64,000 bases of DNA from Escherichia coli. Lineage in GTDB: Bacteria; Pseudomonadota; Gammaproteobacteria; Enterobacterales; Enterobacteriaceae. Under the pieces are notes generated by a model. The model had not been told where the DNA came from. It did no database searches and saw only the letters and a program-made list of their open reading frames with translations. Made by a program: the position numbers and the translations under genes. Positions 51,910 through 53,392 of this stretch are shown here, piece after piece. The DNA is taken from assembly GCF_024700885.2 (NCBI RefSeq), contig NZ_CP117016.1; one strand, written 5' to 3'. The stretch's first letter is position 1; every line of letters starts with the position of its first letter.

Positions 51910-51964
51910 GAAAGATGCCGGATGCGGCGTGATGAACTGAACCCCAAAACCTGGACAGTTTCAG

Positions 51965-52687
51965 TTAACCGGCTTTTTGATGCTCAGTCCGGTATTCTAC
52001 CGGACTGAGTCCCCCAAGACTGAGTTTTATTCTTTTTTGATTCCAGTAAGTTATGTATTCGTTAACGGCATTTTCCAGCTCTTCTACATTTCTGTAGTCC
52101 CGGCGATAGTACATTTCTTCTTTCAGGTGACCAAAGAAGTTCTCCATTACCGCATTATCAAGGCAGTTGCCCTTGCGCGACATGCTCTGCACTAACCCTC
52201 TGTCCGCCAGGGCGGACTGATAACTTTTTATCCGGTAATGCCATCCTTGATCACTGTGGAGCAGCGGTTTCTCCCCTTCAGCAAGGCTTTCCAGCCCCTT
52301 ATTTAACATGCGCTTCACCAGCTCCTCTGTAGGCCTGCAGGCCGTTTCCCACGCCACGATTTCCCCGTTAAACAAATCAAGTATCGGGGACAGGTACAGT
52401 TTTTGTCCGCCAGCCCTGAATTCGGTGATATCTGTCACCCATTTCTCACAGGGAGCTTCCGCTTTGAACTGCCGCTGAAGGATATTTTCTGCAGTGAGTC
52501 CCATATTTCCCCGGTAAGACCGGTATTTCTTCAGGCGCACAGGAGACTTCAGGCCGAGCTGTTGCATCAGTTTTCGCACCGTTTTGCCACTGAACTTAAG
52601 ACCTCTTTTCTGAAGCTCACAATGGATCCGCCGGTACCCATAACATCCCCGGTGTTCATGGAAGATGGAGGCTATGAGCTGTTTCAC
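51965..52687 (-). CDS. IS3-family transposase OrfB (DDE catalytic domain); frame open upstream to frameshift site at about 52840
   Basis: 240 aa from first in-frame start; rve-type integrase core; expected to be made as OrfAB fusion. Confidence 0.85.
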   Translation of the reverse strand: MKQLIASIFHEHRGCYGYRRIHCELQKRGLKFSGKTVRKLMQQLGLKSPVRLKKYRSYRGNMGLTAENILQRQFKAEAPCEKWVTDITEFRAGGQKLYLSPILDLFNGEIVAWETACRPTEELVKRMLNKGLESLAEGEKPLLHSDQGWHYRIKSYQSALADRGLVQSMSRKGNCLDNAVMENFFGHLKEEMYYRRDYRNVEELENAVNEYITYWNQKRIKLSLGGLSPVEYRTEHQKAG

Positions 52688-52791
52688 ATCAGCATACTTG
52701 TCCTTAGCCTTCTGCAGTGACAGCTGGTAGTACAGCGTGCTTCTGGCCAGCCCTGCAGCCTTTAACAGGTCAGGCTGGCAGTGTCCGCACC

Positions 52792-53313
52792 TCAGGCTCC
52801 GGATGACTTTCGTTTTTTCTCCAGCTCCTGGCGCTTTTTTTCCAGGAGATGCTCCTGCATGGCTTTCAGATATGCATTTTCTGCGCGAAGATAACGCAGC
52901 TCATTCTTCATCTCTTCCGGCGTCATGTTTGCCTCGTTTTCATGGGTATCATCAGAACGGGTCATGCTTTTCTCCTTCCTGCGCCTGATAAAGGCCTCAT
53001 TACCAGATTTGCGGTAGCCTTTTATCCAGTTTTTAACCGTGTTGTGGCTGGGAATGTTAAACCGGGCAGCTACCCGGGGTAGAGACTCAGAATGCCCGAG
53101 AGCATAAAGAACCACGCAAAGTTTATCTTCAGGAGAATAGCTACGCTTGTGTCTGCAATCCAGTGCCCGAGGACCGTGAAGAAGAAAAAGATTAATCCAG
53201 TGTGAGAGGCTGGTGTGAGAAAGTTGAAAGAGTTTTGCCGTAGAAATGATGCCTGCATGACCAGCCAGGTAATGATTTACAGCGGCAAGTTTTACTTCAA
53301 ATGAATGTTTCAT
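52792..53313 (-). CDS. IS3-family transposase OrfA (HTH), InsJ-like
   Basis: 173 aa from MKHSFEVKLAAVNHYLAGHAG; leucine-zipper-like C-terminus. Confidence 0.9.
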   Translation of the reverse strand: MKHSFEVKLAAVNHYLAGHAGIISTAKLFQLSHTSLSHWINLFLLHGPRALDCRHKRSYSPEDKLCVVLYALGHSESLPRVAARFNIPSHNTVKNWIKGYRKSGNEAFIRRRKEKSMTRSDDTHENEANMTPEEMKNELRYLRAENAYLKAMQEHLLEKKRQELEKKRKSSGA

Positions 53314-53392
53314 AAACTGCACCTTCAGATGTCAGATTATGTCCAACATTTGGGGTGCAGTTCAGTGAACGCCTTATCCGGCATTTTATAAA

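What the first reader, a model, noticed from the sequence alone, without database searches (positions are those of the whole stretch)
51929..53368. IS3-family element inserted into a REP element with a 4-bp GTGA target duplication
Removing 51933-53364 and one GTGA copy rejoins the flanks into a canonical REP unit (GCCGGATGCGGCGTGAACGCCTTATCCGGC). This is a clean, apparently recent insertion between yphA and yphB, close enough to the yphB-F operon terminus and the yphA 3' end to have polar or promoter effects.
Basis: seen in the sequence. Interest (0 to 1): 0.5.

Follow-up and report, generated by a model that had tools for sequence, protein, structure and literature searches.

The report
IS1397 insertion sequence inside a REP
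This is an intact copy of the known E. coli insertion sequence IS1397, sitting where this element normally lands, in the central loop of a REP hairpin between the ends of two convergent genes, so it is real but ordinary.

Summary
Window 51933-53364 is a 1432-bp IS3-family element on the minus strand. It has 25-nt imperfect terminal inverted repeats (TG...CA) and a GTGA direct repeat on each side. Removing it and one GTGA restores exactly the REP found at the yphA-yphB intergenic site of K-12 and of 5273 of 5426 complete E. coli genomes.

The element is IS1397. Identical copies are named so by RefSeq. The literature describes IS1397 as an IS3-family element that transposes specifically into REP (palindromic unit) sequences.

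I confirmed that behaviour. Five independent loci all have the IS in the centre of a REP, with 3-4-bp duplications.

The copy looks functional:
- orfA and orfB are intact.
- It has an A AAA AAG -1 frameshift site.
- It has a DD(35)E triad.
- 100% identical copies lie at another locus in related genomes.

The insertion is not private to one strain. Thirty-three genomes carry IS1397 in this REP, from at least two separate events (duplications GTGA, GAAC and GTAA).

Polar effects are unlikely. Both neighbouring genes end here and converge, and neither coding sequence is touched. The remaining possible effects are loss of the REP hairpin at the 3' ends of the mRNAs, read-through from yphB, and antisense transcription into yphA.

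Verdict: already known, low interest.

The parts
51487..51909 (+). yphA (DoxX family), the left neighbour. It is intact and its stop codon ends 23 bp before the IS.
   Evidence: ORF list; RefSeq annotation of the same locus in other genomes.
51917..51932 (.). Left half of the split REP (GCCGGATGCGGC + GTGA).
   Evidence: It pairs with 53369-53387 (I2) and is identical to the empty sites.
51929..51932 (.). Left copy of the target-site duplication, GTGA.
51933..53364 (-). IS1397, 1432 bp, IS3 family; the transposase is read on the minus strand.
   Evidence: 100% identical copies are annotated 'IS3-like element IS1397 family transposase'. Boundaries confirmed against other loci.
51933..51957 (.). 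Terminal inverted repeat at the transposase-distal end (IRR), TGAACTGAACCCCAAAACCTGGACA.
   Evidence: I1.
53340..53364 (.). Terminal inverted repeat at the transposase-proximal end (IRL), ...TTTGGGGTGCAGTTCA.
   Evidence: I1.
52792..53313 (-). orfA, 173 aa, with two HTH_28 DNA-binding domains.
52834..52840 (-). Slippery heptamer A AAA AAG in the orfA frame: the -1 programmed frameshift site that yields OrfAB.
   Evidence: RefSeq notes 'programmed frameshift' on the same CDS.
51965..53313 (-). OrfAB transposase CDS, 449 aa after the -1 shift. Domains: HTH_28 x2, HTH_21, rve. Catalytic residues D295, D355, E391, with K398.
   Evidence: (NF033516, 385 bits against a cut-off of 160).
53313..53364 (-). 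5' leader of the transposase RNA. The first 11 nt of the IS pair with the Shine-Dalgarno/AUG region of orfA (predicted hairpin).
   Evidence: -23.9 kcal/mol, z = -4.6. The function is inferred.
51983..52009 (-). Perfect 12-bp stem with a 3-nt loop inside the 3' end of orfB. Role unknown.
   Evidence: I8.
53365..53368 (.). Right copy of the target-site duplication, GTGA.
53365..53382 (.). Right half of the split REP (GTGA + ACGCCTTATCCGGC).
53393..54265 (-). yphB (aldose 1-epimerase), the right neighbour. It is intact and its stop codon lies 28 bp from the IS. Its transcription runs into the IS in the sense direction of the transposase.

Best explanation
The element is a full-length, apparently functional copy of IS1397, an IS3-family insertion sequence of E. 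coli. It integrated into the central loop of the single REP (palindromic unit) between the convergent genes yphA and yphB and duplicated the 4 loop bases GTGA.

Shown here:
- the identity of the element and its exact ends;
- the duplication and the pre-insertion site;
- the intact orfA and orfB, the frameshift site and the DD(35)E residues;
- that other copies of this IS also sit in REP centres with 3-4-bp duplications.

Inferred from established knowledge of the IS3 family:
- OrfAB is made by -1 ribosomal slippage on A AAA AAG.
- It moves the IS by copy-out/paste-in through a circular intermediate with abutted ends.
- That intermediate is integrated into a target chosen by the transposase, here the REP.

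The insertion splits the REP hairpin but leaves both neighbouring coding sequences intact. Any effect on them would be indirect: loss of the 3' REP hairpin of their mRNAs, yphB read-through into the transposase gene, or transposase-strand transcripts running antisense into yphA. The predicted leader hairpin would keep read-through transcripts from being translated. This last point is inference.
For: Ends, inverted repeats and duplication.

Name: 100% identical copies are annotated IS1397.

Family: NF033516 IS3 transposase, 385 bits against a cut-off of 160. Pfam rve, rve_2, HTH_21 and HTH_28 x2. A AAA AAG lies in the orfA frame and the fusion is 449 aa. D295, D355 and E391 have 35-residue D-E spacing, with K at +7.

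Empty site: it is identical to the reconstruction in K-12 and CFSAN061763 and present in 5273 of 5426 genomes.

Filled site: 33 genomes, both junctions.

REP targeting: insertions at yphA-yphB, yfcO-smrB, ridA-mgtA, mobB-rrf and zinT-msrQ all lie in the centre of a REP. Their duplications are GTGA, TGAC, TTAC, GCC and GCT. REP loops make up about 3 in 10,000 positions of the window.

Literature: IS1397 inserts specifically into REP, and the transposase determines the specificity (PMC1525189, which cites Clement 1999 and Wilde 2001, 2003; PMC3184786).

Recent activity: a 100% identical copy lies at another locus (yfcO-smrB) in a genome that also has the yphA-yphB insertion.
Against: Nothing contradicts the identification.

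Limits:
- The ISfinder type sequence and the primary IS1397 papers were not available. The name therefore rests on RefSeq annotation of identical copies and on behaviour.
- Frameshifting, transposition activity and any effect on yphA or yphB were not and cannot be tested here.
- No sigma-70-like promoter was found in the IS by a consensus scan, so the transposase promoter is not located.
Confidence: 0.95

Rival explanations
1. An IS3-family element with no target preference landed in a REP by chance.
For: IS3-family elements in general show only weak target preferences (family knowledge). One site alone could not exclude chance.
Against: Five of five independent loci examined have the IS exactly in a REP centre. 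The same REP was hit at least twice independently. REP loops are about 0.03% of positions in the window. Published experiments show REP specificity (PMC1525189, PMC3184786).
Confidence: 0.01
2. The copy is an old, decaying relic that can no longer move. It is fixed at this site and inherited passively.
For: The insertion is shared by 33 genomes from several continents and hosts, so it is not brand new. Many E. coli genomes do hold only a 65-bp IS1397 relic elsewhere.
Against: Both ORFs, the slippery site, the catalytic residues and both inverted repeats are intact. The two duplication copies are identical. A copy at a different locus is 100% identical over 1432 bp. Carriers hold 5-8 copies, which points to recent transposition in this lineage.
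Confidence: 0.07
3. All 33 occupied yphA-yphB sites descend from one ancient insertion. The empty state of the other genomes arose by loss or by recombination with empty alleles.
For: The orientation is the same in all. Between lineages, the IS copies diverge by 0.5-3% and the flanks by 1-3%, which is similar.
Against: The junctions differ. The duplication is GTGA in the window group and GAAC, 2 bp to the right, in NRZ14408 and WWCOL-236. It is GTAA on both sides in a longer BIME allele. A single event cannot give shifted junctions without two matched indels. So there were at least two events, probably three or more.
Confidence: 0.03
4. The junctions are an assembly artefact: a repeat collapsed or misplaced in the assembly.
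For: Multi-copy IS elements are common sites of misassembly.
Against: Both junctions, with the same duplication, occur in 33 independently finished genomes. The flanks rejoin perfectly into the known empty site.
Confidence: 0.01

Closest known systems
IS1397 (IS3 family; E. coli; Bachellier 1997, Clement 1999, Wilde 2001 and 2003, as cited in PMC1525189)
   Same: The sequence is identical to copies that RefSeq names IS1397. It is 1432 bp long, with orfA/orfB and a -1 frameshift. It inserts into the central part of REP/palindromic units with 3-4-bp duplications.
   Different: Nothing of substance. The yphA-yphB site is one of many possible REP targets. I could not check whether this particular site has been mentioned in print.
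ISKpn1 (IS3 family, Klebsiella pneumoniae)
   Same: It is a relative of IS1397 that also inserts into palindromic units, and its transposase determines which type of unit it targets (PMC1525189).
   Different: It is a different host's element with a different REP type. It was not compared by sequence here.
IS150 and IS911 (IS3 family, well-studied members)
   Same: The architecture is the same: TG...CA ends, orfA with HTH, orfB with rve/DDE, an A AAA AAG -1 frameshift, 3-4-bp duplications, and copy-out/paste-in through a circle (family knowledge).
   Different: They have no REP specificity. By RefSeq labelling the sequences are only family-level relatives.
IS621 (IS110 family)
   Same: It is also an E. 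coli IS that inserts specifically into REP sequences (PMC1525189, PMC3184786).
   Different: It has an unrelated recombinase (a DEDD type, not DDE/rve) and no terminal inverted repeats. It inserts at a defined sequence to one side of the REP palindrome rather than in its loop (PMC3184786). The present element has rve and inverted repeats, so it is not of this kind.

Membership tests
IS3 family | DDE transposase with an rve (integrase core) domain, DD(35)E spacing and a K/R seven residues after E | tested here: met
   Pfam rve 7e-21, rve_2 and rve_3. D295, D355 and E391, with D-E spacing 35 and K at +7.
IS3 family | Whole-protein match to the curated family model above its cut-off | tested here: met
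   NF033516 transpos_IS3, 385.3 bits against a cut-off of 160. The next family, IS481, scores 100.9, below its cut-off of 224.
IS3 family | Two consecutive, partly overlapping ORFs, with orfB in the -1 frame and a slippery A AAA AAG motif giving an OrfAB fusion | tested here: met
   orfA is 173 aa. The heptamer at 52840-52834 is in the orfA frame. The fusion is an open 449-aa protein. Frameshifting itself is not testable here.
IS3 family | Imperfect terminal inverted repeats of 20-40 bp ending 5'-TG...CA-3' | tested here: met
   25-nt arms, 84% complementary, TGAACTG...CAGTTCA.
IS3 family | Direct target duplication of 3-4 bp | tested here: met
   GTGA here. TGAC, TTAC, GCC and GCT at four other loci.
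IS1397 | Near identity (ISfinder convention: at least 95% DNA identity) to the type sequence | not testable with these tools
   The type sequence is not held. As a proxy, copies 100% identical to this one are annotated 'IS3-like element IS1397 family transposase' by RefSeq. Most E. coli copies are 95-100% identical.
IS1397 | Insertion specifically into the central part of REP/palindromic units | tested here: met
   Five of five independent loci, plus three junction variants at this REP. Published specificity: PMC1525189, PMC3184786.
REP / palindromic unit (the target) | Imperfect GC-rich palindrome of about 30-35 bp matching the E. coli REP consensus, extragenic, repeated in the genome | tested here: met
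   The reconstructed GCCGGATGCGGCGTGAACGCCTTATCCGGC lies between two stop codons. There are 4 matches to a strict REP pattern in the window against 0 in shuffles. The same unit is at the empty site in K-12.
IS110 family (IS621-like REP-targeting elements) | DEDD-type recombinase, no terminal inverted repeats, usually no target duplication | tested here: not met
   The protein is rve/DDE. Inverted repeats and a duplication are present.

The most novel reading that the evidence does not exclude
The yphA-yphB REP may be a preferred landing site, not just one of several hundred equivalent REPs. It was hit by IS1397 at least two or three separate times among 5426 genomes, each time in the same orientation, although elsewhere the IS lies in either orientation relative to the REP. 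That would mean something beyond the REP sequence steers target choice and orientation, for example convergent transcription or hairpin extrusion at this site.
Probability: 0.12. Interest if true: 0.3.

Novelty: already known. Interest (0 to 1): 0.1.

Why it matters
It matters little beyond good annotation. The element and its REP-specific insertion were described in the late 1990s, and RefSeq already annotates the same insertion in 33 genomes.

Practical value:
- The insertion is a clean lineage marker, because filled and empty sites are easy to score by PCR.
- The copy is probably active, so it adds to IS-driven variation in this lineage.
- The yphA and yphB coding sequences are unaffected, so nobody should assume a knock-out or a polar mutation here.

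Tried and rejected
- Primary papers. I tried to read the primary IS1397 papers (PMC94167, PMC95333, PMC135288, PMC169884). None is held, so published properties are cited through PMC1525189 and PMC3184786.
- REP annotation in K-12. The K-12 record lists no feature in the yphA-yphB spacer. I read the sequence instead.
- Pattern search. I replaced it with a regex script.
- Promoter and terminator scan of 51400-53900. It gave no promoter-like site inside the IS and no more terminator-like sites than in shuffles. So no outward promoter can be claimed.
- Frameshift stimulator. The region downstream of the slippery site folds only modestly better than shuffles (z = -2.2). I make no claim about a stimulator structure.
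- Rejected explanations: a chance hit in a REP, an assembly artefact, a single ancient insertion, and membership of the IS110/IS621 kind. See the rival explanations and the membership tests.
- Sequence typing of the carrier genomes was not attempted, because no scheme is available in the tools.

Full report
**1. The observation**

- GTGA lies at 51929-51932 and again at 53365-53368.
- Between them is a 1432-bp element, 51933-53364, that starts TGAACTG and ends CAGTTCA.
- Its ends are 25-nt inverted repeats with 84% complementarity (I1).
- Just outside, 51912-51930 and 53369-53387 are also complementary to each other (I2). These are the two arms of a palindrome that the element has split.

Deleting the element and one GTGA gives GCCGGATGCGGCGTGAACGCCTTATCCGGC.

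**2. The empty site exists**

The reconstructed sequence is exactly what lies between yphA and yphB in strain CFSAN061763 and in K-12 MG1655.

An 800-bp reconstruction of the empty site is found uninterrupted in 5273 of 5426 complete E. coli genomes. The left and right filled junctions are each found in 33 genomes.

**3. What the element is**

The 1432 bp match full-length copies in 1707 of 5426 genomes, nearly all on chromosomes. Copies 100% identical to this one are annotated 'IS3-like element IS1397 family transposase' with a programmed frameshift.

On the minus strand:
- orfA (53313-52792) encodes 173 aa.
- The heptamer A AAA AAG (52840-52834) lies in the orfA frame.
- A -1 shift there gives an open 449-aa OrfAB that ends at 51965.

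The fusion protein:
- scores 385 bits on the NCBIfam IS3 transposase model, whose cut-off is 160;
- carries two HTH_28 domains, HTH_21 and rve/rve_2;
- has D295, D355 and E391, with 35 residues between the second D and E, and a K seven residues after E.

All tested defining features of the IS3 family are met.

**4. REP targeting**

The literature held here says that IS1397 inserts specifically within REP sequences of E. coli, that this was shown by experiment, and that the transposase determines the specificity. It also transposes into REPs in Salmonella and Klebsiella. The sources are PMC1525189, which cites Clement 1999 and Wilde 2001 and 2003, and PMC3184786.

I checked this independently with near-identical copies at four other loci from other genomes.

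| Locus | Left flank | Right flank | Duplication |
|---|---|---|---|
| yfcO-smrB | GCCTGATGCGACGCTGAC | TGACGCGTCTTATCAGGC | TGAC |
| ridA-mgtA | GGCCGGATTGGGCGTTTAC | TTACGCCGCATCCGGC | TTAC |
| mobB-rrf | GGCTGGATAAGACGCGCC | GCCAGCGTCGCATCCGGC | GCC |
| zinT-msrQ | GCCGGATAAGGCGCT | GCTCGCGCCGCATCCGGC | GCT |

These come and the alignments. With the window, that is five of five insertions in the centre of a REP, with 3-4-bp duplications. The IS lies in both orientations relative to the REP.

In the window with the IS removed, a strict REP pattern matches only 4 times in 62.6 kb and never in shuffles. REP loops are therefore a few positions in ten thousand.

**5. Age and history**

The copy looks active. 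It is intact, its two duplication copies are identical, and the copy at yfcO-smrB in strain PCP07014, which also has the yphA-yphB insertion, is 100% identical over all 1432 bp. Carriers have 5-8 copies.

The insertion is not private to one strain. About two dozen genomes from humans, chickens, a dog, lake water and seawater share junctions at 99.7-100% identity. They come from Mali, Japan, Switzerland, the UK, South Africa, Ecuador, Thailand and the USA.

The remaining carriers show that this REP was hit more than once.
- NRZ14408 and WWCOL-236, and by their 598-bp spans three more genomes, have the IS 2 bp further right, with the duplication GAAC.
- 377323_2f and EC12 have GTAA on both sides, within a longer multi-REP allele.

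The IS copies at this site differ from the window's by 0.5-2.9%, and the flanks by 1-2.8%. So there were at least two events, probably three or more, all in the same orientation. With so few events that could be chance.

**6. Consequences for the neighbours**

yphA runs rightward and its stop codon ends at 51909. yphB runs leftward and its stop codon is at 53393-53395. The IS lies 23 and 28 bp beyond the two stop codons, between two 3' ends.

Neither coding sequence is changed, and no gene lies downstream to suffer polarity. A consensus scan finds no promoter-like site in the IS.

What remains possible is inference only:
- Each mRNA loses the REP hairpin at its 3' end.
- yphB transcription now reads into the transposase gene in the sense direction.
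- Transcripts of the transposase strand could continue antisense into yphA.

An RNA that starts outside the IS is predicted to fold so that the first 11 nt of the IS pair with the Shine-Dalgarno/AUG region of orfA. The fold energy is -23.9 kcal/mol, z = -4.6, and 0 of 200 shuffles fold as well. This is the kind of arrangement by which other IS elements avoid activation by outside transcription. It is not tested here.

**7. Mechanism**

Shown here: the anatomy, the target, the duplications and the multiple identical copies.

Inferred from established knowledge of the IS3 family:
- OrfA alone is made without frameshifting. OrfAB, the transposase, is made by -1 slippage.
- Transposition is copy-out/paste-in. 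It goes through a circle in which the two ends abut, separated by a few bases, and the circle is then integrated into the target.

For IS1397 the transposase selects the REP (PMC1525189).

**8. Comparison and verdict**

This is IS1397 doing what IS1397 is known to do.
- IS621 also targets REPs, but it is of the IS110 kind, with a different enzyme and no inverted repeats. That membership is tested here and not met.
- ISKpn1 is the Klebsiella counterpart.
- IS150 and IS911 share the architecture but not the target.

Novelty: already known. Interest: low.

The only mildly open point is whether this REP is hit more often, or in a more biased orientation, than other REPs. The present sample cannot decide that.

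Noticed in passing
L018 701-765 (E. coli CV601, K-12-like); corresponds to window 51933-51997: About half of the 3485 genomes that 'match' IS1397 hold only a 65-bp relic of one IS end. In K-12-like genomes the relic abuts a half REP (GGCCGGATAAGGCGTTTA|TGAACTG...) downstream of yhhJ. It is cut off by the ISEc1/H-repeat gene yhhI. This is an old REP insertion later truncated by another element.
   Followed up: partly
L014-L017 (the yphA-yphB locus in JNE25-003, NRZ14408, 377323_2f and WWCOL-236): The same REP carries IS1397 with three different junctions: duplications GTGA, GAAC and GTAA. The orientation is always the same, and the IS variants differ by 0.5-3%. This means recurrent independent insertion into one REP.
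   Followed up: partly
window 53313-53364, minus strand: A predicted strong hairpin pairs the first 11 nt of the IS with the ribosome-binding site and start codon of orfA (-23.9 kcal/mol, z = -4.6). It would mask translation of transcripts entering from yphB.
   Followed up: partly
window 51983-52009: A perfect 12-bp stem with a 3-nt loop lies inside the last codons of orfB, about 50 bp from the IS end. It is not followed by a T run. In the diverged copies one or two stem bases change. Its role is unknown (I8).
   Followed up: no
L016 1900-2040 (strain 377323_2f): In some lineages the yphA-yphB spacer holds a longer multi-REP (BIME-like) allele, about 112 bp longer than the single REP of the window and K-12.
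   Followed up: no
L015 1927-2799 (strain NRZ14408): yphB is annotated as a pseudogene (internal stop) in one carrier of the GAAC-type insertion. The defect is not at the IS junction, so it is probably unrelated.
   Followed up: no
window about 33293-33322, 40683-40715, and 63768-63797 (62332-62361 in IS-removed coordinates): Three further intact REP units lie in the window. None is occupied by an IS.
   Followed up: no
window 51442-51909: The longest yphA ORF starts at GTG 51442 (155 aa). RefSeq annotates the 140-aa form that starts at ATG 51487.
   Followed up: no
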